DNA of 40,354 nucleotides from an uncultured bacterium (GTDB lineage Bacteria; UBP7; UBA6624), in the NCBI GenBank assembly GCA_964397735.1, contig CAYNKD010000001.1, forward strand, positions 12,161 to 52,514, read 5' to 3'. A model generated the notes under the pieces. It did not search any database and had not been told where the DNA came from. It worked only from the letters and a program-made list of their open reading frames with translations. The position numbers and the translations under genes were made by a program. This document shows, in pieces, positions 73 to 39,786 of the stretch (position 1 is its first letter; every line of letters starts with the position of its first letter).

Positions 73-407
73 TGAATTATTGGAGATTTGTAGTTTAGAT
101 TTTTGAAAAATCTAAATCTCAGAATCCCCTCACTATCTTTCAAGAAGGTCTCTATTTCTTTTTTTGTTTTTTGGTCTATATCAACTAAAAAGAACGTGTA
201 GTCACCATCTTTGAATTTATTAATTGCATAAGCCATTCTCTTCATACCCCATGCATCCTTCTCAATGATTTTCCCCTTATTGGATTTAATTATTTTTTCT
301 ATTTTTTTAAGAATAGATAAATTTTCTTGACTATCTTCTGGGCTAAGTATGAGAGCTAATTCGTAAGTTCGCTTCTCAACAGCTTTCTCCGGAAACTTAT
401 AAGACAT
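1..407 (-). CDS. rpsF: 30S ribosomal protein bS6. The 3' end is outside the window, so it is partial.
   Basis: It is absent from the ORF track because it has no stop in the window. The minus-strand ATG at 407-405 is preceded by AGGAGG (revcomp of 411-420). The translation MSYKFPEKAVEKRTYELALILSPEDSQ...GKIIEKDAWGMKRMAYAINKFKDGDYTFFLVD fits the bS6 core pattern. Confidence 0.85.
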   Translation of the reverse strand, partial: MSYKFPEKAVEKRTYELALILSPEDSQENLSILKKIEKIIKSNKGKIIEKDAWGMKRMAYAINKFKDGDYTFFLVDIDQKTKKEIETFLKDSEGILRFRFFKNLNYKSPIIQEKPKEEEKPKEEEKPKEEEKPKE

Positions 408-1518: not shown

Positions 1519-3300
1519 CTATTCAGATTTCTCGTCTGCCTTCTCTTTCTCTGTATCTTCAGCAGACATAACGGTTATTTCCGCATCAGAGAGGATGATT
1601 TGTAGATGCTCAATTTCGCTTTTTATCTTGTCTTCATCATGGTCAATAGCTCTCTGTAGGTTTGCTATCGCTGTTCTTAATGAATCTTTTGTCACTTTTT
1701 CAATGAATTTTTTTCTGTCTCTTATAAAGGCTTCTGCCTCATATATCAATGCATTTGCTTCTGAGGTTTCTCCTATTTCACTTTCTTTTTGAGATGTTCG
1801 TACCCCTATCTCAAGTTGGGCTTCCCTAACTTCTTCTGGAGATAATCTTTTCTGGCTTGTTTTAAATGAAACAGATTTTTCTTTCTTAGAAGCTCTGTCT
1901 TTTGCTGTAACTTTAACAATGCCATTTATGTCATAGTCAAAAAGGACATCAACTAAAGCTTTTCCAGCATCTTGTGACTCTATTCCAGAAAAAACAAAAT
2001 CACCTAATTTTGGGTTCGCTGCCGCAGCTTCTTGTTCTCCTTGATAAACTGTTATCTGTGCTTCTGTCTGCATATCTTGTGTCGTGACGTAAGGTTTCTT
2101 TTTTGAACAAGGAATTGCTGTATTTCTGGGGATAATTACTGAAAACTTACCCTCTTTTACCTCTATTCCAAGTGAGTGAGGGGCAACATCAACAATAACC
2201 ATCTCTTCCAATTTCCCTCTTTTCACTCCTGCCTGAATTGCAGCACCGAGTGCAACTGACTGCTCAGGGTCGACCTTATGGTCAAGAGTTTTCCCAACAA
2301 GGTCTTCAACGAATTGTTTTACTTTCGGCATTCTGGTTGTTCCACCTACCAAAAGAATCGAGTCAAGATCTTTGAAGTCTAATTTAGCATCTTTCATAGA
2401 TTGCTCTAAGGGTTTTTGCGTCCTTCCAACCAGGGGTTCAATGATTTCTTCTAACTGAGTTCTTGACAAGGTTGTTTTCAAATGTTTGGGTTCTTCTGAT
2501 TCGGTGTATATGAAAGGAAGGTTTATTGTTGTTTCAAGATGTTCTGAAAGATCTTTTTTTGCTGTTTCTGCAGCATCTTTTAATCTTTGCTGAACAACTC
2601 TTTTTTGTATTTCATCTATTTCCTTTCCCTCTAAATCAACCTTTTCAGCCTTCTTAAAGTTCTTTTTTAGCCATTCTGCAATTGCCCAGTCCATGTCATC
2701 TCCACCTAATTGAACATCGCCATTTGTAGCTAGAACCCTAAATGCTCCTTCTCTTGCTCTGATGATGGATACATCAAAAGTTCCTCCACCAAAGTCATAA
2801 ACCATTATTGTGTCTTTTGATTCGCTATTAAGGCCATATGCTAAGGCTGCAGCTGTAGGCTCATTTAGTATTCTTTCAACAACGAATCCAGCTATTTCTC
2901 CAGCATCCTTTACAGCCTGTCTTTGAGCATCATTGAAATAAGCAGGAACGGTTATTACAGCTTCTTCAACAATTTCTCCGAGAAACTCTTCAGCGTCTAG
3001 TTTCAATCTTTTGATTATTGCTCCAGCAATTTCTTGAGGAGTAAACTGTTCTTTTCCTAGGGTTATTACTTTATCCTCTCCCAAGATTCTTTTTATAGAG
3101 GCAACAGTCCTGTCGGGAAATGCAATTGATTGGTTTTTAGCAGCCTCTCCAACTAGGAGATCTCCTGTTTCTGACATTCCGACAACACTCGGGGTCAAAA
3201 GAGAATCTCTTGAGTTCGGAATTAATTTTGGCGCATCTTTATCTAAATAGCCAATCAGACTGTTCGTTGTACCAAAATCAATGCCTAATATGTTTCTCAT
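1519..3300 (-). CDS. dnaK: Hsp70 chaperone DnaK (short 593-aa form).
   Basis: Motifs seen are GIDFGTTNS, DFGGGTFDVS, NEPTAAALAYG and LLVGGTTRMPKV. An AGGAGG Shine-Dalgarno sequence lies upstream and grpE is immediately upstream. Confidence 0.9.
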   Translation of the reverse strand: MRNILGIDFGTTNSLIGYLDKDAPKLIPNSRDSLLTPSVVGMSETGDLLVGEAAKNQSIAFPDRTVASIKRILGEDKVITLGKEQFTPQEIAGAIIKRLKLDAEEFLGEIVEEAVITVPAYFNDAQRQAVKDAGEIAGFVVERILNEPTAAALAYGLNSESKDTIMVYDFGGGTFDVSIIRAREGAFRVLATNGDVQLGGDDMDWAIAEWLKKNFKKAEKVDLEGKEIDEIQKRVVQQRLKDAAETAKKDLSEHLETTINLPFIYTESEEPKHLKTTLSRTQLEEIIEPLVGRTQKPLEQSMKDAKLDFKDLDSILLVGGTTRMPKVKQFVEDLVGKTLDHKVDPEQSVALGAAIQAGVKRGKLEEMVIVDVAPHSLGIEVKEGKFSVIIPRNTAIPCSKKKPYVTTQDMQTEAQITVYQGEQEAAAANPKLGDFVFSGIESQDAGKALVDVLFDYDINGIVKVTAKDRASKKEKSVSFKTSQKRLSPEEVREAQLEIGVRTSQKESEIGETSEANALIYEAEAFIRDRKKFIEKVTKDSLRTAIANLQRAIDHDEDKIKSEIEHLQIILSDAEITVMSAEDTEKEKADEKSE

Positions 3301-7237: not shown

Positions 7238-8767
7238 GTGTTGTTGGAGAATTGGAATAACCAAAAGAGCTGGGGTGTTGTTTCTGGAGAGACAGAGTGT
7301 TTTTCTGAATCAAAATCTATTTTAGAAATTGGCCCAAAAATGGATTCAAAAAGATATAAATTCTTCCTCAAGTCGTTAAGCTTTTTTATTCCCCCTGGAG
7401 CGTTATTGAGCACTCTTATGCCTTTAAAGGTCCCAGTAGAGCGCTCTGAAGTGCAAAAAGAACCACAAACTTTAAATATTTTTCCAAATTTAAAAACTTT
7501 AGATAGGTTAGGGAAAAAAAAGACATCAAAGTCCAAGAAAAGCATTTTAAACATTGCAAGCGGAAATGATTCAGAGGTTTACGGTCTTGTAGATTCAATA
7601 GGTTTTCCTTTCAATAATCTAAAAAAAATTAACATATTTGAAGAAGGCCATCCTGATTACAGAAGTTTTTATAAAAAAAATCGACATTCTTGGTTTAGAG
7701 ATTCAAAAACATTCTTGAAATCCTGTAAAAATATTTTCAATTGTGAGATTTCTTATATTCAATCAAATTCTTCTCCTTCTGTTGAAAATTATCTAGAGAA
7801 AATAAAAACTAATGATTATCAGAGTTTTTTTAAATCCAATTCTGATTTTATTAGAGAGGGAGATTCTGGCGGAATTAAAGTAGTTAAAAAATGCTTAAAA
7901 GAAAACAAAAGATTAAGTGTCCTCGTTCCCTTTAAGGGAATAGGGCATCTTTTCTGTCAATCTTGTAAAAAATATACAAAATGTCCAATTTGCAAAAAGA
8001 CTTTAACGCTGTATGAACATGAATTGAAGTGTATTGAGTGTAATGATTCTTGGCCAAAAATAAATAGGTGTGACAAGTGCGGAGAGAGGGTTTACAACCT
8101 GAAAAAAGGCCTAGATCATTTTTTCAATTGGTTTTTGATGCAAGGGTTTTCTTCTGAGGACATTGAAGTTATAAGCTCAGAGAAAACACCAAGAGAGATA
8201 AAAAAATCTTTAAAGAATATGAAAGAGGGTCTTTCTAAGGTTTTACTGACCACTAATTTTGAATTTCTAAGAGATGATTATGGGCAAAATATGATTTGGA
8301 TACCTTATTTAAAGTATTTATTTGTAGGCAGTGATTTTAGATCTTACGAGAACGGTTGGTGGAGAATACATGCAATAAATAGTTTTTGTTTAAAAAAAGA
8401 TTTAGATCTATTTTTAGGATCTAAGGGATCTTTTTTCTTTCCGGTAAAATGTTTTGAAAAAGGTGAATTTTCTAAATTTTACAGAGATGAAATCGAAACA
8501 AGAAAGCAATTTGACTATCCTCCTTTTGGAGAGATGTTAATGGTTATTTCAGAAAAAAAAATCAATGGGGTCTCGTACGAAGGGGTTGATTTAGGGGATT
8601 TCGCAAGCGATTTACGTCATTTTAGAGCTTTTAATAGTCGTGGAAGAGAAGAAAATCACACTGCGTATGTTTTTCAATTCAAGGAAATGGAAAAGAATTT
8701 TAAAAAATTCATTAAAAATTTAATTTTAAAAAATGAAAATATTAGAATTTACTACGAAGGAAAATAA
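7238..8767 (+). CDS. priA: Primosomal protein N' (PriA) homolog, shortened, with degenerate helicase motifs.
   Basis: The PriA Cys-rich zinc region is retained (CQSCKKYTKCPICK...CIECN...CDKCG). The C-terminal YPPFG motif and the FFIPPGALLSTLMP winged-helix pattern are present. The gene sits directly upstream of def-fmt. The ORF-track start is GTG 7238; the open frame begins at 7136 with no canonical start before 7238. Confidence 0.7.
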   Translation: MLLENWNNQKSWGVVSGETECFSESKSILEIGPKMDSKRYKFFLKSLSFFIPPGALLSTLMPLKVPVERSEVQKEPQTLNIFPNLKTLDRLGKKKTSKSKKSILNIASGNDSEVYGLVDSIGFPFNNLKKINIFEEGHPDYRSFYKKNRHSWFRDSKTFLKSCKNIFNCEISYIQSNSSPSVENYLEKIKTNDYQSFFKSNSDFIREGDSGGIKVVKKCLKENKRLSVLVPFKGIGHLFCQSCKKYTKCPICKKTLTLYEHELKCIECNDSWPKINRCDKCGERVYNLKKGLDHFFNWFLMQGFSSEDIEVISSEKTPREIKKSLKNMKEGLSKVLLTTNFEFLRDDYGQNMIWIPYLKYLFVGSDFRSYENGWWRIHAINSFCLKKDLDLFLGSKGSFFFPVKCFEKGEFSKFYRDEIETRKQFDYPPFGEMLMVISEKKINGVSYEGVDLGDFASDLRHFRAFNSRGREENHTAYVFQFKEMEKNFKKFIKNLILKNENIRIYYEGK

Positions 8768-21077: not shown

Positions 21078-22028
21078 TCAACTTGTGGAAAGGCCTAATT
21101 TTTTAAATATGCCCTCATAGTTGATTTTCCTGGAGGAAGAGTTGATTCTGTTTGCACTCATTCCAAGAGATATGTTGATTAAATCAGTTGCATACATTAC
21201 CGGTATGGGTTTCTTGTCAATTCCCAAGGTTTTCATTATTGTTTCTTGGTATGTGTCAATTGCTTCAAGGCCTCTTGGGTCCAAGGTTGCAATAACCTCA
21301 GCATCGCTTTCATGAGCATCTTTAATGACTGGACCAATAATCTTTAGAGCATAATCTTTTGTCAGTTTGTTGAAAGAAGAAGAATTTTCATTCCTTAGTT
21401 GGATTGTTAGGTAGCCACCGAGCCACCTGTTAAAAGAACCCCAGTTAACGCATTTCCCGCCTGTCTTGTGAATTAGAGAGGAAACAATCATTGGATTGTC
21501 TGGATGGTCAGATTTAATTTCCGACATTGGTCGCATAAGTTCAGGGGGTGTGTGTAGGGCTATTCTTAAAGGGTCAAATTCTTCATCTCTATCATTTCCT
21601 AGTTTTCTTATGATAAGTCTGTCAAATTTTTTACCTCCAGTCTGCAGCTTCATAAGGTGGAGAATGTTTACAGCTTTAAATCTTCCAGAATATTCAATTC
21701 CGAGAGATTCAATCATTTTGTCTTTTGCATTTGCATAAGAAGGATCTCGAAGCCTCTTTATAGCTTTTCTATAAACTTGATAAAGCAATGGGTCTGCTAT
21801 AAATAATTTATCATTTCTTGTAGTTTTTTCAGCTATACATAAATTCCTTAAAGTGTACCCAATGAATTTTTTTTCATCTGTGAGATAAGGGCCTTCTTCA
21901 CCTGTATCGCTCCAGTTTTGTATAGTTTCATCATCAATTCCCAATTGCCTCAAACAAACAGACATACTGCTTTCGAAATCTTTGTAAACAGAGGAAAGGA
22001 TTCCTGATTTGATTAATGTAACCTTCAT
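21078..22028 (-). CDS. HdrB/CCG-domain-like protein lacking the CCG-motif cysteines.
   Basis: It is colinear with HdrB as I remember it. LRNLCIAEK matches ARN.xIAE, RIALHTPPELMRP matches VHYGCHFLKP, EVIATLDPRGLEAID matches VNVCPFCHLQFD, and IPVMYATDLINISLGMS matches PVLHL.QLLGLAMG. Only 3 Cys occur in 316 aa. Confidence 0.6.
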   Translation of the reverse strand: MKVTLIKSGILSSVYKDFESSMSVCLRQLGIDDETIQNWSDTGEEGPYLTDEKKFIGYTLRNLCIAEKTTRNDKLFIADPLLYQVYRKAIKRLRDPSYANAKDKMIESLGIEYSGRFKAVNILHLMKLQTGGKKFDRLIIRKLGNDRDEEFDPLRIALHTPPELMRPMSEIKSDHPDNPMIVSSLIHKTGGKCVNWGSFNRWLGGYLTIQLRNENSSSFNKLTKDYALKIIGPVIKDAHESDAEVIATLDPRGLEAIDTYQETIMKTLGIDKKPIPVMYATDLINISLGMSANRINSSSRKINYEGIFKKLGLSTS

Positions 22029-34186: not shown

Positions 34187-34824
34187 TGAAACGAAAGCAG
34201 GCTCTTTTTTTAAAAACAAAAGCTTCTAATGGATGCCTTAGATCTCAAGTGGAATTAGGAAAGGCGTTTTTGTTTGGGGAAGGCTTTTCTCAAAGCGTTG
34301 AAGATGCTGAATCCTGGTTAAGGAAAGCTTATGAAGGAGGCAGTCTTGATGGTGCATACGAGTTAGCAATGTTGCTAAAAACATCTACTGAAAGTGACAA
34401 AAAGAAAAAAGAGTCTTTTTCAATTCTTTACTATTCTGCAAGCTTGGGGCACGTCAAGAGTCAAAGGAGGTTGGCAAGATGTTTTTTAAATGGTTCTGGG
34501 GTAAAAAAAAATAAATCAGAAGCAGCTTGGTGGTTTTTTATTTCTGGCCTTTTAGGAGATGGAGATTCTAGATTTATGCTTGGTCGTATGTTTGAGCTTG
34601 GGCAAGGCGTAGGGGTGGATGTCGAGGAATCTATTTATTGGTACGAGCTTGCTGCTGAAAATGGAGATGTTGATGCTCAGTTCCTTCTTGGAAAGATATT
34701 TTTTGAGAAAGGTTTTTTCACAGATGCTGAGAAATGGTTAAAGTTAGCCAGAAGGGCTGGAGACAGAGAGGCTGCAAAACAATTAGCAAAAATTAAAAAA
34801 ATTGAAGGAGGAAGCGTTCTATGA
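34186..34824 (+). CDS. Sel1-like repeat (SLR/TPR-like) protein.
   Basis: The repeated pattern is G.GV..D..EA..W..KAA..G...A...LG... Confidence 0.75.
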   Translation: MKRKQALFLKTKASNGCLRSQVELGKAFLFGEGFSQSVEDAESWLRKAYEGGSLDGAYELAMLLKTSTESDKKKKESFSILYYSASLGHVKSQRRLARCFLNGSGVKKNKSEAAWWFFISGLLGDGDSRFMLGRMFELGQGVGVDVEESIYWYELAAENGDVDAQFLLGKIFFEKGFFTDAEKWLKLARRAGDREAAKQLAKIKKIEGGSVL

Positions 34825-35144
34825 AGGTTTCAAATATTGAGTCAATACCGGGCTATGAAGTAAAAGAAGTTCTAGGTTTGGTTGAAGGTTCTACAGTCAG
34901 GGCAAAACATATAGGCAAAGACATTATGGCAGGATTCAAATCAATGGTTGGAGGAGAGATGAAAGAGTATACAGAACTTCTAAATGAATCTAGGCAAGAG
35001 GCAGTTAAAAGAATGACCATGAGAGCAGAAGCTTTAGGTGGAAATGCTGTTTTGAACGTAAGGTTTTCAACTTCAAGTGTCGCACAAGGAGCTGCTGAAT
35101 TGTTTGCATACGGGACAGCTGCGGTTGTAGCGAAAAAGAAGTAG
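34821..35144 (+). CDS. YbjQ/UPF0145-family protein (soluble form).
   Basis: The pattern GYEVKEVLGLVEGSTVRAKHIGKDIMAGFKSMVGGE...EALGGNAVLNVRF...ELFAYGTAAVV is present. The start overlaps the Sel1 gene in an ATGA junction. Confidence 0.75.
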   Translation: MKVSNIESIPGYEVKEVLGLVEGSTVRAKHIGKDIMAGFKSMVGGEMKEYTELLNESRQEAVKRMTMRAEALGGNAVLNVRFSTSSVAQGAAELFAYGTAAVVAKKK

Positions 35145-35146
35145 CT

Positions 35147-35629
35147 ATGGATAGCAGAATACTTTTTGAAATTCTTGGGGCATACTTTCCGATCGTTGTC
35201 ATTTTTTGTTGCTGGATTGCTTCAAAAAGAAATGACAATAAGCTTTTGGCTTACCTTAGGAAAGAGGAGCCAAAGTATGCTGATATTCAAATTTTAAATA
35301 CAAAAGAAATCCCAAAAGATTTAAATGCAATCGATTCTTCTCTATGCACAACCCAGGTTGTTCTTGCTGTTGATCCAGGGAAGCAGTTTGTTGCTTGGAT
35401 ATTGACAATGGTTGGGGGGAATGTTGATGTTTATCAGAAAATGTTGCATTTAGCAAGACGTAAAGCAAAGCTGAATATTCGAAAACAGGCAAGGGAAGAA
35501 GGGTCAAATTTAGTTTTAAAGTACAGTGTTGAAACCTCAAACGTCTTTGCCGGAAGTGGAAATAGTGAAAGCGGTTCTGCAGGTGCTGTTGAGGTTTTTT
35601 CATATGGAACTGCTATAAACCAAGATTGA
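35147..35629 (+). CDS. Membrane-anchored YbjQ/UPF0145-like paralog.
   Basis: An N-terminal TM helix (ILGAYFPIVVIFCCWIA) is followed by a divergent YbjQ-like core ending in VEVFSYGTAI. Confidence 0.55.
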   Translation: MDSRILFEILGAYFPIVVIFCCWIASKRNDNKLLAYLRKEEPKYADIQILNTKEIPKDLNAIDSSLCTTQVVLAVDPGKQFVAWILTMVGGNVDVYQKMLHLARRKAKLNIRKQAREEGSNLVLKYSVETSNVFAGSGNSESGSAGAVEVFSYGTAINQD

Positions 35630-35687: not shown

Positions 35688-36239
35688 ATGATTTTGCTAA
35701 TAGGGATGGTTTTTTTAATGAGTTTAGATACTGGCATCAAAGAGCCAAAATATACAGTTTTAGAGAAAGAAAAAAATATAGAGATAAGGGAATATTCTGA
35801 ATACGTAATTGCGAGAACGTCAATTGTCAAGGATGATGAAAAGACAGATAATGGGATGTTCATGATACTTGCGAATTATATTTTTGGTGGTAATCAGAAA
35901 AAAGAGAGTATAGCCATGACAGCTCCGGTTATTACAACAGAGAATGACAAGTCTTATGACATGATATTTTTCATGCTCGATGTTGATGATGTTAGCGAGT
36001 TGCCGAATCCAAATAGCAAGAATGTTCATTTGGAAAAAATGAATTTGGAAAAAGCTGTTGCTATTAGGTTTGGATGGTGGGCTACAAAATGGAGCATAAA
36101 CAGGAACAGGGAAACATTGGAGCGTTACATCGAGAAAAAAGGCCTTCAGGTTGTTTCTGAAATGATGGTTGCTCAATATAACTCGCCTTGGGATTGGCCA
36201 TTTTTGAGAAGAAATGACATAATTTTCCAAATCAAATAA
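35688..36239 (+). CDS. SOUL heme-binding-family protein.
   Basis: The pattern EPKYTVLEKEKNIEIREYSEYVIA...FMILANYIFGGN...IAMTAPV is present, and the N-terminus is hydrophobic. Confidence 0.65.
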   Translation: MILLIGMVFLMSLDTGIKEPKYTVLEKEKNIEIREYSEYVIARTSIVKDDEKTDNGMFMILANYIFGGNQKKESIAMTAPVITTENDKSYDMIFFMLDVDDVSELPNPNSKNVHLEKMNLEKAVAIRFGWWATKWSINRNRETLERYIEKKGLQVVSEMMVAQYNSPWDWPFLRRNDIIFQIK

Positions 36240-36250
36240 ATTTGACTCCA

Positions 36251-37255
36251 ATGACAAGGATTAACATAATTCCGCCTTCTGAATTGCATGATCAGCATCT
36301 CATTGCTGAATACAGAGAGATAACAATGGTTCCTGCAGCTTTAAAGAGAACGCTAAAAAGCAAAAATGGGCTGGATAAAGATAAGATTCCTCAAAATTAC
36401 ACCTTAAATAAAGGGCATGTATATTTTTTCTACGACAAGGGCAAATACCTGGATCTAAGGTATGTCCAGATAGTTAAAGAGATGAAAAACAGAGGGTTTA
36501 AACCTGACTCAGAAAGAAAATTTCCAAAGGATTTATTTGTCAAGAATGGACTTTATGGAGATTGGATTCCTGAAGTTGAAGATTATGAAATAATTCGAAA
36601 AAGAATTTTTGAAAAAATAAACAAGAGACCTGGTTGGTACAGACATACAAAAAGTGCGATAAGTTTTTTTGGGAAATGGGCTGAGTCTGGAAAAGATGCA
36701 GGGATGGAAGAGCATCATTCTCAATCTGTGAATTTCATGATTGACAAGATATCAAAAAGCTCAAAAGATAATTTCAGTTTTATTGATGCTGGTTGTGGTA
36801 ATGGATGGGTTGTCAGAAAGATGAAGGAGCATTCTCGCTGTAAATACTCTTCAGGTATTGATGGTGCAGTGCAGATGGTAGATAAAGCAAAACTTATTGA
36901 TCCTGAAAGTGATTATTTTCATAGCGACTTGATTGAATGGAATCCAAATAAAAAATATGATTTTGTTCACTCTATGGAAGTTTTTTATTATTTTAGAGAT
37001 GTGTCCAAGATTTTAGAAAAAATATATAAAGAATGGCTTTGCCAGGATGGGAAGTTGATTTTTGGAGTTGATCACTATGGCGAAAATAAGCCATCTTTGA
37101 ACTGGCCTGAAAAATGCGGTGTTTTTATGAATACACTGTCAATAGAGGAATGGAAAAAACTGCTATCAAGTGTTGGTTTTAAGAATATAGATTATTGGCA
37201 AGTTGGAAAAAAGGATGACTGGGTTGGAACATTAATCTTTTATGCAGAAAAATAA
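36251..37255 (+). CDS. Fusion of a pyrimidine-dimer DNA glycosylase (T4 endonuclease V / DenV-like) with a class I SAM-dependent methyltransferase.
   Basis: The N-terminus MTRINIIPPSELHDQHLIAEYREI...NKGHVYFFYDK...RPGWYRHTKSAI is colinear with T4 endoV (MTRINL..SEL.DQHL.AEYRE...GHV.FFYDK...RPTWYKYYG). The C-terminal half carries FIDAGCGNGWVVRKM (motif I). I chose ATG 36251 so that Thr2 becomes the N-terminus. Confidence 0.75.
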   Translation: MTRINIIPPSELHDQHLIAEYREITMVPAALKRTLKSKNGLDKDKIPQNYTLNKGHVYFFYDKGKYLDLRYVQIVKEMKNRGFKPDSERKFPKDLFVKNGLYGDWIPEVEDYEIIRKRIFEKINKRPGWYRHTKSAISFFGKWAESGKDAGMEEHHSQSVNFMIDKISKSSKDNFSFIDAGCGNGWVVRKMKEHSRCKYSSGIDGAVQMVDKAKLIDPESDYFHSDLIEWNPNKKYDFVHSMEVFYYFRDVSKILEKIYKEWLCQDGKLIFGVDHYGENKPSLNWPEKCGVFMNTLSIEEWKKLLSSVGFKNIDYWQVGKKDDWVGTLIFYAEK

Positions 37256-37302: not shown

Positions 37303-38220
37303 ATGCAAAACAATACCCATTCCTATATCGAAGATCCACGAAATAAAAATATAAAAATTTATATAAATGGCGAGATACTTAACAGACCTGATGCAAAAAT
37401 CTCCGTTTTCGATAGTGGGTTTTTATTGGGCGATGGAGTATGGGAAGGTATTCGTCTGCACAATGGAAGATTGTGTTTTTTGAATGACCATCTTGGAAGG
37501 CTCTACGATGGGGCTAGGCAGATAAGTATAAAAATTCCATATTCCAAAGACCAATTAAGTGAAATTATTTATAAGGTTGTTAGAAAAAATAATATGGATT
37601 CTGGTGTACATATTCGGGTCATTATCTCAAGAGGGGAAAAAATAACTCCTTATCAACATCCTGAAGCAAATCTTGGACCGATAAGCCTTGTTGTTATTCC
37701 TGAATACAAAATAGCAAATAGAGCAATTAACAAATACGGAATCAGTTTAACTTCTGTAAAAATCATTAGAGGGACTAGCTTGAACCAGGACCCAAAAATC
37801 AATTCATTAAGTAAGTTCAACTGTATTGCAGGGTGTCTTCAGGCTATTGAGAAGAATGTAGACGAGGGATTGATGCTGGATGTAAATGGTCATGTTTCAA
37901 CCTGCAACTCTACAAATTTTTTTATAGTCAAAAATAATCAAGTAATCACTTCAAAAGGAGAATATTGCCTAAATGGAGTGACTCGAAAGAATATTATTGA
38001 AATATGTAGAGAAGAGGGTATTGATGTCCTAGAGAGAAATTTTATGCTGGAGGAAGCATATGATGCCGATGAGTCTTTCGTTACTGGAACTTTTGCAGGT
38101 GTTATTCCTGTTGTTGATATTGATAAAAATATTATTGGAGATGGTAAAAGAGGTTCTGTTACAAAGTCTCTTTTTAATTTTTATAAGAAAAAAATAGACA
38201 GGCTGTATCCAAGACAATGA
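37303..38220 (+). CDS. Class IV (branched-chain / D-amino-acid) aminotransferase family protein.
   Basis: Motifs seen are ISVFDSGFLLGDGVWEGIRLHNGR...HLGRL, EGLMLD..G.VS.CNSTNFF, LNGVTRKNIIE and DESFVTGTFAGVIPV. Confidence 0.75.
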   Translation: MQNNTHSYIEDPRNKNIKIYINGEILNRPDAKISVFDSGFLLGDGVWEGIRLHNGRLCFLNDHLGRLYDGARQISIKIPYSKDQLSEIIYKVVRKNNMDSGVHIRVIISRGEKITPYQHPEANLGPISLVVIPEYKIANRAINKYGISLTSVKIIRGTSLNQDPKINSLSKFNCIAGCLQAIEKNVDEGLMLDVNGHVSTCNSTNFFIVKNNQVITSKGEYCLNGVTRKNIIEICREEGIDVLERNFMLEEAYDADESFVTGTFAGVIPVVDIDKNIIGDGKRGSVTKSLFNFYKKKIDRLYPRQ

Positions 38221-38951
38221 GTGGTAAAAAAATAATTGGGATGTGGTCTGGACCCCGAAATATTTCAACTGCACTTATGAGATCTTTTGAGAATAGGGTT
38301 GATACGACTGTTACAGATGAGCCTTTTTATGCTTTTTTCCTGCAAGAAACAGCAACAAGGCATCCAATGTACCAAGAAATAATTCATTCATATGATACGT
38401 CTTGGAGCAATGTGGCTAATGTGTTAACAGGGTCAATTCCAAACGATAAAAATATATGGTATCAAAAGCTAATGACGCATCATTGGGTCAATAAGCAACC
38501 CCTGAAATGGATTAGTAGCATAGATAACTGTTTTCTAATCAGAAATCCAAAAAAGGTCATATTGTCTTATTCGAAAATCCATGACGAGGTTAGTCCTGAG
38601 CTATTAGGTTTGCCTCAGCAGCTCCATATATTTAATTATGCAAAAGAGCAAGCTAAAAAGATTCCAATAGTGATTGATTCAGGAGATATATTGAAAAACC
38701 CTAAATTGATGTTGGGGAAATTGTGCGATCTGCTGGGAATTCAATTTTCAAACAGGATGTTAAAGTGGCCAAAAGGATTTCGTGATTCGGATGGAATCTG
38801 GAGGGAGCATTGGTATGGCAATGTAATCAAAACAACTTCTTTTTCCAATCCTCCTACAAGAAAAGAAGAGTTTCCGGATAAATTTTCAGACCTGCTAGAT
38901 GAATGCATGCATTATTACAGAATGATGGAGAAATATAAAATTAATAATTAA
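38217..38951 (+). CDS. Sulfotransferase-like (P-loop-type) family protein of unknown specificity.
   Basis: The N-terminal MWSGPRNISTALMRS resembles the sulfotransferase PSB loop (PRSGST). The start overlaps the aminotransferase gene in an ATGA junction. Confidence 0.4.
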   Translation: MSGKKIIGMWSGPRNISTALMRSFENRVDTTVTDEPFYAFFLQETATRHPMYQEIIHSYDTSWSNVANVLTGSIPNDKNIWYQKLMTHHWVNKQPLKWISSIDNCFLIRNPKKVILSYSKIHDEVSPELLGLPQQLHIFNYAKEQAKKIPIVIDSGDILKNPKLMLGKLCDLLGIQFSNRMLKWPKGFRDSDGIWREHWYGNVIKTTSFSNPPTRKEEFPDKFSDLLDECMHYYRMMEKYKINN

Positions 38952-38952
38952 G

Positions 38953-39786
38953 CTATTTTCTCTGAACTGTCCAGACTCCAAAAAGAACTACCGGTAAAGC
39001 AAGCCAAAAACCCTCTTGTGGAACTTGTTTGTAAACGGCCATTGCAACCAATGCGGTTGTTGGAGGTTGTAGGTTTATGAAAACTGCAACTTGGCTTGGT
39101 TTTAAAAACTGCAGAGCTGTTGCCCATATGGAGTAAGCGACTATGCTTGTTAGAAATGCAATATGGAATAAACCATACCATGCAAATGGTGTGATTGTAG
39201 AAAAGTCGGGTTTTTCTCCCATTAAGAATATGGCTATAGCAATTGGCAACCCAATGAGGAAAGATCTTGAAACAGCTTCTTTTGCTCCTATAGATTTCGA
39301 TATTGGAGGAATTAGTGATGTGTATATTGCCCAACATATTACACCTATAAGTATAGTTTTTTCACCGTCACCGAAAGTAGAAAGTCCGCTATTCCCAAGA
39401 ATCCAATATGTCCCCAGGAAGGCCAAAAGAATTCCTAAAATACGAGAAAAAATAATTCTCTCTTCTTTCAGTATGAGGGAAATAATTAAAATAAAAACAG
39501 GTGTTGTGGCATAGAGGATTGATGCATGTGCTGGAGGTGTTCCAAGAGACATTCCTTTTAAAAAAAATGCTTGGTTTAAAGCGACTAAGATTCCGCAAAA
39601 GATCATTCTTGGCATAAGTTTTTTTGGTATTATTGAAAAGCCATTTTTGTAAGTTCCAATTAGAAAGAATATAAAAACGGTGAGTGAAATCCTCAATCCA
39701 ACTAATGCAGATCCTCCAAAAGATTCACTGGATATTTTTGCTACATTATATGTAAGTGCGGTTATTACTAAATGGAGCAGCAGCAA
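38953..39786 (-). CDS. EamA/DMT-family transporter.
   Basis: It has about 10 hydrophobic helices in a two-repeat layout typical of EamA. The start is TTG, and the frame stays open upstream without a canonical start. Confidence 0.7.
   Translation of the reverse strand: MLLLHLVITALTYNVAKISSESFGGSALVGLRISLTVFIFFLIGTYKNGFSIIPKKLMPRMIFCGILVALNQAFFLKGMSLGTPPAHASILYATTPVFILIISLILKEERIIFSRILGILLAFLGTYWILGNSGLSTFGDGEKTILIGVICWAIYTSLIPPISKSIGAKEAVSRSFLIGLPIAIAIFLMGEKPDFSTITPFAWYGLFHIAFLTSIVAYSIWATALQFLKPSQVAVFINLQPPTTALVAMAVYKQVPQEGFWLALPVVLFGVWTVQRK

What the first reader, a model, noticed from the sequence alone, without database searches (positions are those of the whole stretch)
36251..37255. Complete T4-endonuclease-V-type pyrimidine-dimer glycosylase fused to a SAM-dependent methyltransferase
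Residues 1 to about 140 match T4 DenV end to end. This includes the MTRIN N-terminus, whose Thr2 alpha-amino group is the catalytic nucleophile in T4 endoV. It also includes the AEYRE glutamate and the C-terminal RP.WY motif, which is where T4 endoV ends.

Instead of stopping, the ORF continues for about 190 aa into a class I methyltransferase fold (FIDAGCGNGWVVRKM, FVHSMEVFYYF). The same polypeptide therefore combines a UV-lesion glycosylase/AP-lyase with a methyltransferase. I do not recognise this architecture as characterised.

It could couple lesion recognition to DNA or base methylation, or it could be a fortuitous fusion.
Basis: partly seen in the sequence, partly recalled or inferred. 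Interest (0 to 1): 0.65.

Follow-up and report, generated by a model that had tools for sequence, protein, structure and literature searches.

The report
UV-repair glycosylase fused to a methyltransferase
One uncultured marine bacterial lineage really does encode a T4-type UV-damage DNA glycosylase joined to a small-molecule-type methyltransferase, but the evidence points to a rare, lineage-specific gene fusion of two independent enzymes, which its sister lineage has already partly deleted.

Summary
ORF 36251-37255 (334 aa) has no stop at the junction. Residues 1-137 align end to end with T4 endonuclease V (E 2e-21), and the catalytic Thr2 and Glu23 and the C-terminal W/Y are all present. Residues ~134-334 are a class I SAM methyltransferase.

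Three independent assemblies, about 0.2% apart in sequence, keep the intact fusion, so it is not an artefact. The architecture is essentially unique: it forms one cluster among 5.8 billion proteins, and no other two-domain hit appeared among 1.84 billion representatives.

The methyltransferase belongs to the uncharacterised Hvo_0019 family (PDB 6f5z; profile E 2e-31, TM 0.80). Its pocket resembles NodS, and it has no DNA-methyltransferase motifs.

Outgroups have SOUL→MTase without DenV. The sister lineage (85% nucleotide identity, same synteny) lacks exactly codons 2-121. It keeps a neutrally evolving vestige of the DenV C-terminus, so the fusion arose once and was later trimmed by an in-frame deletion.

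Both halves are under purifying selection. DenV and this MTase co-occur nowhere else, and no interdomain interface is predicted.

Best reading: a bifunctional protein whose two activities work independently. Coupling to DNA methylation is not supported.

The parts
36251..37255 (+). Complete fused ORF (334 aa plus stop): DenV-type glycosylase joined to an Hvo_0019-type methyltransferase
   Evidence: The identical architecture is present in L001 and L002.
36251..36649 (+). DenV (T4 endonuclease V / Pyr_excise) domain, residues 1-133. Conserved residues include Thr2, Arg3, Arg22, Glu23, His56, Arg118, Lys122, Trp129 and Tyr130.
36254..36613 (+). The 360-bp segment (codons 2-121) that is absent from the sister lineage. 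The boundary is ambiguous by 1 nt (36255-36614 is equally possible).
36614..36652 (+). DenV C-terminal codons 122-134 (KINKRPGWYRHTK). Their homologue survives in the sister lineage as a decayed vestige (KSNKKPNLHRDTE).
   Evidence: In one search, 26 of 36 nt match over codons 122-133. This is the best of 80,638 36-mers and lies in register. In one search, omega is about 1 over codons 122-134.
36641..36655 (+). Fusion junction, residues 131-135 (R-H-T-K-S). The stand-alone DenV end (WYRKT..*) meets the stand-alone MTase start (MNKKTESAV).
36653..37252 (+). Class I SAM methyltransferase domain of the Hvo_0019 family, residues 135-334. Pocket residues are W143, E243, Y246, Y247 and W285.
36779..36805 (+). 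SAM-binding motif I (FIDAGCGNG, residues 177-185)
35688..36239 (+). Upstream SOUL-family gene, 11 nt from the fusion's ATG. It is the conserved neighbour of the MTase in the fused, short and outgroup lineages.
37303..38951 (+). Downstream class IV aminotransferase and sulfotransferase genes on the same strand. They are probably co-transcribed. They are present in the fused and short lineages and absent from outgroup L011.

Best explanation
The gene encodes a genuine bifunctional fusion protein that arose once in an uncultured marine bacterial lineage.

**Origin (inferred).** A chromosomal denV-type gene was joined, end to start and in frame, onto the 5' end of a resident housekeeping methyltransferase that sits downstream of a SOUL-family gene. 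The join probably used an A-rich 'AAA ACA' microhomology. DenV lost only its last 2-4 residues and its stop codon. The MTase lost its first ~4 residues and its start codon.

**N-terminal half (inferred from conserved residues).** It works as a T4-endoV-type cyclobutane-pyrimidine-dimer DNA glycosylase/AP lyase. After removal of the initiator Met, the alpha-amine of Thr2 attacks C1' and forms a Schiff base, with Glu23 as acid/base. This chemistry requires the DenV domain to be at the extreme N-terminus, which is the order observed.

**C-terminal half (family membership shown, substrate unknown).** It is an Hvo_0019-family class I SAM methyltransferase with a NodS-like pocket. It most likely methylates an amine- or sugar-like small-molecule substrate, not DNA.

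**Relationship between the halves (inferred).** The two activities most likely act independently, and the fusion simply co-expresses them from one start codon.

**Sister lineage (shown).** The sister species later removed codons 2-121 by a clean in-frame 360-bp deletion. It reuses the DenV ATG and keeps a 12-13 codon vestige that evolves neutrally. So the MTase does not need the DenV domain.
For: **Domain identities.**

**DenV residues.** All the catalytic and DNA-binding residues examined are kept except R26. That position is Met in all the aligned marine stand-alone homologues too. The fused DenV deviates at only 2 of 67 family-invariant columns, which is within the range of stand-alone members. 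Against stand-alone DenVs, pN is 0.18 while pS is saturated. The role of the N-terminal Thr amine and the active-site Glu comes from PMC3285167.

**MTase.** dN/dS is 0.14, like the neighbouring genes. The pocket residues match those described for Hvo_0019/NodS in PMC6144793. There is no in-frame start codon between codons 78 and 152, so a complete MTase can only be made as the fusion.

**The fusion is real.** Three SNP-distinct assemblies carry it.

**The fusion is rare.** Only cluster P0001 among 935 word-indexed hits has both domains. None of the 150 best-scoring hits listed from 1.84e9 representatives matches both halves. The GTDB genome, JGI metagenome and IMG/VR scans contain none.

**History.** The outgroups lack DenV. 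The sister lineage is collinear apart from the 360-bp gap. The vestige match is 26/36 nt, the best of 80,638 36-mers and in register, with omega about 1. All 11 full-length members of the P0002 cluster read carry the deletion, and 3 of the 15 variable positions among them fall in the vestige.

**No co-localisation elsewhere.** None was found in 30 other loci.

**No confident interface.** The full-length AlphaFold model has pTM 0.53 and the junction is below pLDDT 50.
Against: - No activity was measured for either domain.
- Both halves have been kept intact under purifying selection since the split from the sister lineage (pairwise dS about 0.5-0.6). That is also what a functionally coupled fusion would show.
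- The full-length model used a shallow MTase alignment, so the lack of a predicted interface is weak evidence.
- The MTase substrate is unknown, so a nucleic-acid-related role cannot be excluded. The archaeal family member binds Trm112, whose other partners modify components of the translation machinery.
- The microhomology mechanism for the fusion is inferred from present-day sequences only.
Confidence: 0.8

Rival explanations
1. The fusion is functionally coupled. The methyltransferase acts in the same pathway as the glycosylase. It might methylate DNA or a base at or near the lesion, modify a repair intermediate, or regulate the glycosylase by N-methylating its catalytic N-terminal alpha-amine.
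For: Both domains are kept intact under purifying selection within one polypeptide. The join has essentially no linker. The nearest characterised relatives of the MTase are amine N-methyltransferases (NodS, BamL, phosphoethanolamine NMT), and the DenV nucleophile is a primary amine.
Against: - The sister lineage discarded DenV and kept the MTase under selection.
- The MTase family (hundreds of clusters) and the DenV family (thousands of clusters) are otherwise stand-alone, and they are never adjacent in the loci examined.
- The stable neighbour of the MTase is a SOUL-family gene, not a repair gene.
- There are no DNA-MTase motifs or Pfam hits.
- No confident interdomain interface is predicted.
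Confidence: 0.07
2. The DenV half is a non-functional passenger. It would be kept only because it supplies the start codon and N-terminus for the methyltransferase, so the protein is effectively just an MTase with a long leader.
For: After the fusion the MTase has no start codon of its own. The sister lineage shows that most of the DenV part is dispensable.
Against: The DenV domain shows no decay. All the catalytic and DNA-binding residues checked are retained apart from the family-typical R26M. It deviates at 2 of 67 invariant columns, like stand-alone members. pN is 0.18 against saturated pS, and there are no stops over 133 codons despite a lineage divergence of dS about 0.5-0.6. By contrast, the true vestige in the sister lineage lost the invariant W and Y and evolves with omega about 1.
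Confidence: 0.06
3. Two separate proteins are actually produced, either by internal translation initiation or proteolytic cleavage at the junction, or because the single ORF is a sequencing or assembly artefact that hides a stop or frameshift.
For: The junction region has low predicted confidence (pLDDT below 50 for residues 135-153). That would be compatible with a flexible, cleavable segment.
Against: Three independent assemblies with different SNPs share the open frame. The sister lineage's in-frame deletion only makes sense if DenV and the MTase were already in one frame. There is no ATG, GTG or TTG between codons 78 and 152, and initiation at M152 would remove the conserved W143 helix. 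In the deep-alignment model the same junction helix is confident (pLDDT about 86).
Confidence: 0.03

Closest known systems
T4 endonuclease V (DenV, T4 pyrimidine dimer glycosylase; PDB 2end, 1vas, 2fcc) and the Pfam family Pyr_excise PF03013
   Same: The alignment is end to end (residues 1-137 against 1-136 of 138, 39% identity). Retained features are the N-terminal Thr2 nucleophile, Glu23, Arg3, Arg22, His56, Arg117/Lys121 equivalents and the C-terminal W-Y. Marine stand-alone relatives of ~135 aa are 74% identical.
   Different: The protein does not stop after WY(K/R)xx but runs straight into a 200-aa methyltransferase. T4 Arg26 is Met, as in all the aligned marine cellular homologues. The gene is chromosomal and bacterial, not phage.
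Hvo_0019 of Haloferax volcanii (PDB 6f5z chain A), an uncharacterised class I SAM methyltransferase and Trm112 partner (PMC6144793)
   Same: The family profile matches at E 2e-31 over almost the full length, and the fold match has TM 0.80. The N-terminal 'F..WA..G.D.GME..H' helix and the pocket residues are conserved (W143, E243, Y246, Y247 and W285 correspond to W10, E111, Y114, Y115 and W152).
   Different: Identity to Hvo_0019 is about 24%, and R22 of Hvo_0019 is His155 here (the family consensus is Asn). The domain is fused behind a DNA glycosylase. Dependence on Trm112 is unknown, and the substrate is unknown in both.
NodS (Bradyrhizobium N-methyltransferase of the Nod-factor glucosamine amine; PDB 3ofk) and other small-molecule or peptide amine N-methyltransferases (BamL, phosphoethanolamine NMT)
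   Same: It has the class I fold and a similar active-site constellation according to PMC6144793. Pfam NodS gives a weak hit (25.7 bits), and these enzymes are structural neighbours in the fold search.
   Different: It scores far below the NCBIfam NodS equivalog cut-off (27.8 against 300 bits). There is no nod-gene context, and the substrate is not established.
Stand-alone ~205-aa marine methyltransferases (P0002-P0120, several annotated as Flavobacteriaceae), especially the sister-lineage protein P0002
   Same: P0002 is 81-83% identical over residues 121-334 and lies in identical synteny (SOUL - MTase - aminotransferase IV - sulfotransferase - EamA).
   Different: P0002 lacks codons 2-121 and retains only a decayed 12-13 residue DenV tail at its N-terminus.

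Membership tests
T4 endonuclease V / Pyr_excise (PF03013) CPD DNA glycosylase-AP lyase | Significant match to the family model and full-length collinearity with T4 endoV | tested here: met
   Pfam gives 55.4 bits against a cut-off of 23. Residues 1-137 align with 1-136 of 138 of 2end at E 2.4e-21.
T4 endonuclease V / Pyr_excise (PF03013) CPD DNA glycosylase-AP lyase | Thr directly after the initiator Met, so that the free alpha-amine can serve as nucleophile, plus the catalytic Glu23 | tested here: met
   M1-T2-R3 and E23 are present. The mechanism is taken from PMC3285167. The domain is at the extreme N-terminus of the fusion.
T4 endonuclease V / Pyr_excise (PF03013) CPD DNA glycosylase-AP lyase | Basic DNA-binding residues (T4 R3, R22, R26, R117, K121) and the C-terminal W128/Y129 | tested here: met
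   R3, R22, R118, K122, R126, W129 and Y130 are conserved. R26 is M26, but it is also Met in all the aligned marine stand-alone homologues.
T4 endonuclease V / Pyr_excise (PF03013) CPD DNA glycosylase-AP lyase | CPD-specific glycosylase and AP-lyase activity | not testable with these tools
   This needs an enzyme assay on UV-irradiated DNA.
Hvo_0019-type class I SAM methyltransferase (PDB 6f5z) | Class I Rossmann MTase fold with SAM-binding motif I | tested here: met
   FIDAGCGNG lies at residues 177-185. Pfam Methyltransf_23/11/12/25 are above their cut-offs. The AlphaFold model has pLDDT 95.4.
Hvo_0019-type class I SAM methyltransferase (PDB 6f5z) | Full-length profile and fold similarity to Hvo_0019, including the N-terminal lid helices | tested here: met
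   The profile E-value is 2.2e-31 over positions 8-183 of 204. Foldseek ranks it first, E 7.8e-17, TM 0.80.
Hvo_0019-type class I SAM methyltransferase (PDB 6f5z) | Conserved pocket residues W10, R22, E111, Y114, Y115 and W152 (PMC6144793) | tested here: inconclusive
   Five of the six are conserved and invariant in the 120-sequence alignment (W143, E243, Y246, Y247, W285). The R22 equivalent is H155, and the family consensus is Asn.
Hvo_0019-type class I SAM methyltransferase (PDB 6f5z) | Complex with a Trm112-like activator; defined substrate | not tested
   No Trm112 search was done in the window. The substrate is unknown even for Hvo_0019.
DNA methyltransferases (N6A/N4C or C5) | Catalytic motif IV, either (D/N/S)PP(Y/F/W) or PC(Q) with ENV, and a match to the DNA-MTase Pfam families | tested here: not met
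   No such motifs are present. There is no N6_Mtase, N6_N4_Mtase, DNA_methylase or MethyltransfD12 hit at E<=0.1. No DNA MTase appears among the top 50 structural neighbours.
NodS nodulation N-methyltransferase (NCBIfam NF041650 equivalog) | Score above the equivalog cut-off | tested here: not met
   The score is 27.8 bits against a cut-off of 300. The resemblance is limited to the pocket.

The most novel reading that the evidence does not exclude
The fusion could be a 'Rosetta stone' that reveals a real functional link. In this reading the Hvo_0019-family amine-type N-methyltransferase acts on a nucleic-acid-related target or on the glycosylase itself. For example, SAM-dependent N-methylation of the catalytic Thr2 alpha-amine could act as an on/off switch, or the enzyme could modify the sugar/AP-site product. 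That would give the first clue to the substrate of a widespread orphan MTase family.
Probability: 0.04. Interest if true: 0.7.

Novelty: new variant of a known kind. Interest (0 to 1): 0.3.

Why it matters
Both halves belong to known families, so the biochemical novelty is modest. The locus is still a clean natural example of the birth of a two-enzyme fusion, its maintenance by selection, and its reversal by a precise in-frame deletion that leaves a datable vestige.

It illustrates a structural constraint: an enzyme whose nucleophile is its own N-terminal amine can only be fused at its C-terminus. It also shows how a downstream gene that has lost its own start codon can shed a fusion partner only through an in-frame deletion.

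It offers a ready-made construct for testing whether DenV-type glycosylases tolerate C-terminal cargo. If the two domains did turn out to be coupled, it would give a first lead to the substrate of the orphan Hvo_0019 methyltransferase family.

Tried and rejected
- **HMMER search for the vestige.** I searched a DenV-family HMM against all stand-alone MTases to detect the vestige objectively. Only noise-level hits came back and none lay at the N-terminus of P0002. The vestige is too short and has lost W and Y, so I replaced this with an in-register nucleotide test.
- **Combined DenV+MTase alignments.** MAFFT repeatedly stacked the DenV sequences onto the MTase columns. Only a 5 MTase + 30 DenV set aligned properly. 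The full-length model therefore had a shallow MTase block and only moderate confidence, and I did not use it for any interface claim.
- **Taxon identification through the window's Hsp70.** The nearest named relatives are about 57% identical 'bacterium' MAGs, and the GTDB loci are titled 'uncultured bacterium'. The taxon stays undetermined. My guess of an FCB-group or Marinisomatota-like organism rests only on neighbouring gene types and on my own knowledge.
- **Promoter/terminator scan.** The number of sites was no higher than chance.
- **Rosetta-stone partners of either domain in longer relatives.** These were tandem MTases, a polyketide-cyclase fusion, and DenV extensions with no recognisable domain. 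None was informative.
- **Phage origin of the locus.** Rejected. The window is a housekeeping chromosomal region, the viral collection has no hit, and the closest stand-alone DenVs lie in chromosomal contexts.
- **DenV fragment inserted into the window lineage only.** Rejected. This would require an ancestral MTase N-terminus that by chance supplied the invariant DenV C-terminal W-Y in register.
- **Literature searches.** I found no description of this architecture.

Full report
**1. Observation**

The window contains a single ORF on the + strand, from ATG 36251 to TAA 37253-37255 (334 aa). No stop or frame change occurs anywhere near the proposed junction. The mechanical ORF list also offers a TTG at 36242, but every homologue begins at MTR(I/V)N, so 36251 is the start.

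Pfam finds Pyr_excise at residues 1-89 (55.4 bits, cut-off 23) and Methyltransf_23 at residues 164-313 (56.8 bits, cut-off 27), plus Methyltransf_11/12/25. Against solved structures, residues 1-137 align with residues 1-136 of the 138-residue T4 endonuclease V (E 2.4e-21; 53/137 identical).

**2. Is the fusion real?**

The same 334-aa protein (99% identical, P0001) is encoded on two public contigs from different samples: L001 (ERZ978062) and L002 (ERZ23491119). These contigs differ from the window by about 20 SNPs per 9-10 kb and from each other by 15 SNPs per 8.8 kb. Inside the gene there are two synonymous and two non-synonymous differences. These are therefore three independent samples of one population, and all of them have the open frame. 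An assembly or sequencing artefact is excluded for practical purposes.

**3. The DenV half**

- The closest relatives are abundant stand-alone proteins of 133-140 aa from marine metagenomes, about 74% identical. They lie in ordinary bacterial chromosomal contexts, such as BipA | DenV-YbgA-like and TopA-GlyRS-DUF2007-DenV.
- The fused domain keeps T2, R3, H16, E20, Y21, R22, E23 and H56. It also keeps the equivalents of T4 R117, K121, R125, W128 and Y129. T4 R26 is Met, but it is also Met in all the aligned marine stand-alone homologues.
- It departs from the consensus at only 2 of the 67 columns that are at least 95% conserved in 120 stand-alone members. One change is a conservative I→L and the other is the junction residue. 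About 15% of stand-alone members deviate as much.
- Against stand-alone genes, pN is 0.18 while pS is saturated at 0.83-0.93.
- In T4 PDG, the alpha-amine of the processed N-terminal threonine forms the Schiff base, with the active-site glutamate as proton shuttle (PMC3285167).

I therefore infer an active CPD glycosylase/AP lyase. The chemistry only allows a partner to be fused at the C-terminus, and that is what is seen.

**4. The methyltransferase half**

- Hundreds of stand-alone proteins of about 205 aa match residues ~134-334 at 45-83% identity. Several are annotated as coming from Flavobacteriaceae.
- A profile built from 120 of them hits PDB 6f5z chain A at E 2.2e-31 over nearly the full length.
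- A high-confidence AlphaFold model of the domain (pLDDT 95.4) has 6f5z as its top structural neighbour (E 7.8e-17, TM 0.80). The next neighbours are small-molecule, peptide or tRNA class I methyltransferases. No DNA methyltransferase is among the top 50.
- 6f5z is Hvo_0019 of *Haloferax volcanii*, an uncharacterised Trm112-binding MTase with bacterial orthologues. Its conserved pocket (W10, R22, E111, Y114, Y115, W152) resembles that of the amine N-methyltransferase NodS, and the authors suggest a hexose-ring substrate (PMC6144793).
- Five of these six residues are invariant in the family alignment: W143, E243, Y246, Y247 and W285 in the window protein. The R22 position is H155.
- There is no (D/N/S)PP(Y/F/W) or PC/ENV motif and no DNA-MTase Pfam hit. 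No NCBIfam equivalog is reached.

So this is an orphan small-molecule-type MTase, not a DNA MTase.

**5. How common is the architecture?**

- Of 935 word-indexed hits to the full protein, only P0001 carries both domains. This is visible for the 120 listed, where every other hit covers about 60% of the query.
- An exhaustive phmmer search of 1.84 billion 50%-identity representatives gave 2,323 hits. Every one of the 150 best matches either residues ~1-137 or residues ~134-334, never both.
- Among the longer relatives scanned, the MTase occurs as tandem MTases or with a polyketide-cyclase domain. DenV occurs with extensions that have no recognisable domain, and none of these extensions is an MTase.
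- Scans of one genome per GTDB species, of the JGI metagenomes and of IMG/VR found only the short MTase form or stand-alone DenV, and no fusion.
- Among the 32 fetched loci plus the window, DenV and this MTase co-occur only in the three fused sequences.
- Literature searches found no description of such a protein.

One limitation applies. A DenV fused to a very different MTase would only be caught by the Pfam scan of the few long DenV proteins I examined.

**6. Evolutionary history**

The closest MTase, P0002 (214 aa), lies in identical synteny: Band_7 x2, MqnC-like, MqnA-like, Sel1, YbjQ x2, SOUL, MTase, aminotransferase IV, sulfotransferase, EamA. It aligns without gaps to window residues 121-334.

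BLAST splits the 10-kb syntenic region into exactly two collinear blocks (83% and 89% identity). They flank window 36255-36614, a 360-bp segment present only in the fused lineage. The SOUL stop codon, the 11-nt spacer and the ATG are shared.

Codons 2-13 of the short gene (KSNKKPNLHRDT) match window codons 122-133 (KINKRPGWYRHT) at 26 of 36 nt. This is the single best of 80,638 36-mers in the window, and it falls at the in-register position. That stretch is the genuine DenV C-terminus, because stand-alone DenVs end ...KINQKPNWYRKT(xx)*.

In the short form the family-invariant W and Y have become L and H. The 13 codons compared here (window 122-134 against short 2-14) give omega about 0.98, against 0.14 for the MTase proper and 0.09-0.12 for the flanking genes. 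Three of the 15 polymorphic positions in the P0002 cluster fall in these 12 codons.

The outgroup lineages P0003 and P0004 have YbjQ-SOUL-MTase (206 aa, starting MNK(E/K)(K/T)ESAV) with no DenV and no N-terminal extension. More distant relatives sit in unrelated contexts, also without DenV.

The most parsimonious history has three steps:
- (i) DenV was fused onto the MTase once, in the common ancestor of the window and P0002 lineages.
- (ii) The fusion was retained under purifying selection in the window lineage.
- (iii) A clean in-frame deletion of codons 2-121 occurred in the sister lineage.

The reverse scenario is insertion of codons 2-121 into a pre-existing long N-terminus. It would require that N-terminus to supply, by chance and in register, the invariant DenV W-Y tail.

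The junction is seamless: DenV ...WYRKT | MTase (MNKK)TESAV. The shared 'AAA ACA' suggests microhomology-mediated joining, but this is inference.

**7. Is there functional coupling?**

Evidence for coupling:
- Both domains are conserved in one polypeptide.
- The MTase has no start codon of its own, because there is no ATG, GTG or TTG between codons 78 and 152.

Evidence against coupling:
- The sister lineage threw away DenV and kept the MTase.
- Neither family shows any other association with the other.
- The stable neighbour of the MTase is the SOUL-family gene.
- The MTase looks like a small-molecule enzyme.
- The full-length AlphaFold model gives no confident interdomain arrangement (pTM 0.53, junction below pLDDT 50). 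That model's MTase alignment was shallow, so this point is weak.

I conclude that the protein is most likely a bifunctional fusion of two independently acting enzymes (confidence about 0.8). A coupled function is a low-probability alternative (about 0.05-0.07).

**8. Context and organism**

The window is a housekeeping chromosomal segment. It carries Hsp70, Gmk, CoaBC, Def, Fmt, Rpe, MetK, MoaA, a tyrosine recombinase, menaquinone (futalosine-type) genes and others, but no tRNA and no phage genes. GC content is 30-38%. The Hsp70 has no named relative above about 57% identity, and the related MAGs are titled 'uncultured bacterium'. The taxon is undetermined. All related contigs whose sample type is stated come from marine metagenomes.

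**9. Verdict**

It is a lineage-restricted variant made of two known kinds of enzyme, with no support for lesion-coupled methylation. Its main interest is as a neat documented case of fusion birth, maintenance and partial reversal. Interest 0.3; novelty: new variant of a known kind.

Noticed in passing
L003-L010, L022, L023, L025, L026 (for example L003 6001-6645), corresponding to window 36251-37255: The sister lineage's 214-aa methyltransferase starts with the DenV ATG, followed by a 12-13 codon decayed DenV C-terminal vestige (KSNKKPNLHRDT). The deletion is present in all 11 full-length cluster members read, and extra polymorphism falls inside the vestige.
   Followed up: yes
L015-L018 (for example L015 5001-6360): The closest stand-alone DenV gene is followed 8 nt later, on the same strand, by a 314-aa 2-thiouracil-desulfurase/DUF1722 (YbgA-like) gene. 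In E. coli, ybgA lies in the photolyase operon (own knowledge), which hints at a UV-repair gene pair.
   Followed up: no
window 35688-36239 with 36251-37255; L011 134-1303; L032 683-1870: The SOUL-family (haem-binding-like) gene lies immediately upstream of the MTase in the fused, short and outgroup lineages alike. It may be the MTase's real functional partner.
   Followed up: partly
window 37303-38951, compared with L011 1303-2086: The class IV aminotransferase and sulfotransferase genes downstream of the MTase are present in the fused and short lineages. They are absent from outgroup L011, where EamA follows the MTase directly. This small locus has gained genes on both sides of the MTase.
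   Followed up: partly
L030 3001-5055, and the P0008 contig: More distant members of the MTase family lie 95 nt to about 1.4 kb upstream of a QueE-like radical-SAM gene and QueC (7-deazaguanine synthesis). This may be synteny within a single lineage or a hint about the substrate.
   Followed up: no
window 7238-8767 and 21078-22028: Two sizeable ORFs (509 aa on the + strand, 315 aa on the - strand) have no Pfam match at E<=1e-5.
   Followed up: no
window 1519-3300 (- strand): The 592-aa Hsp70-family protein has close unnamed metagenomic relatives (92-96% identical), but no named relative above about 57% identity. This indicates a deep, poorly sampled bacterial lineage.
   Followed up: partly
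window 38953-39786, compared with L001 8703-9365: The EamA transporter gene is 277 aa in the window (276 aa in the sister lineage) but is called as 220 aa in L001. This could be a population-level start or stop variant, or a gene-calling difference.
   Followed up: no
window 34821-35629: There is a tandem pair of YbjQ_1-family genes. The second copy (160 aa) carries an extra N-terminal, apparently hydrophobic extension. The pair is conserved in all related loci.
   Followed up: no
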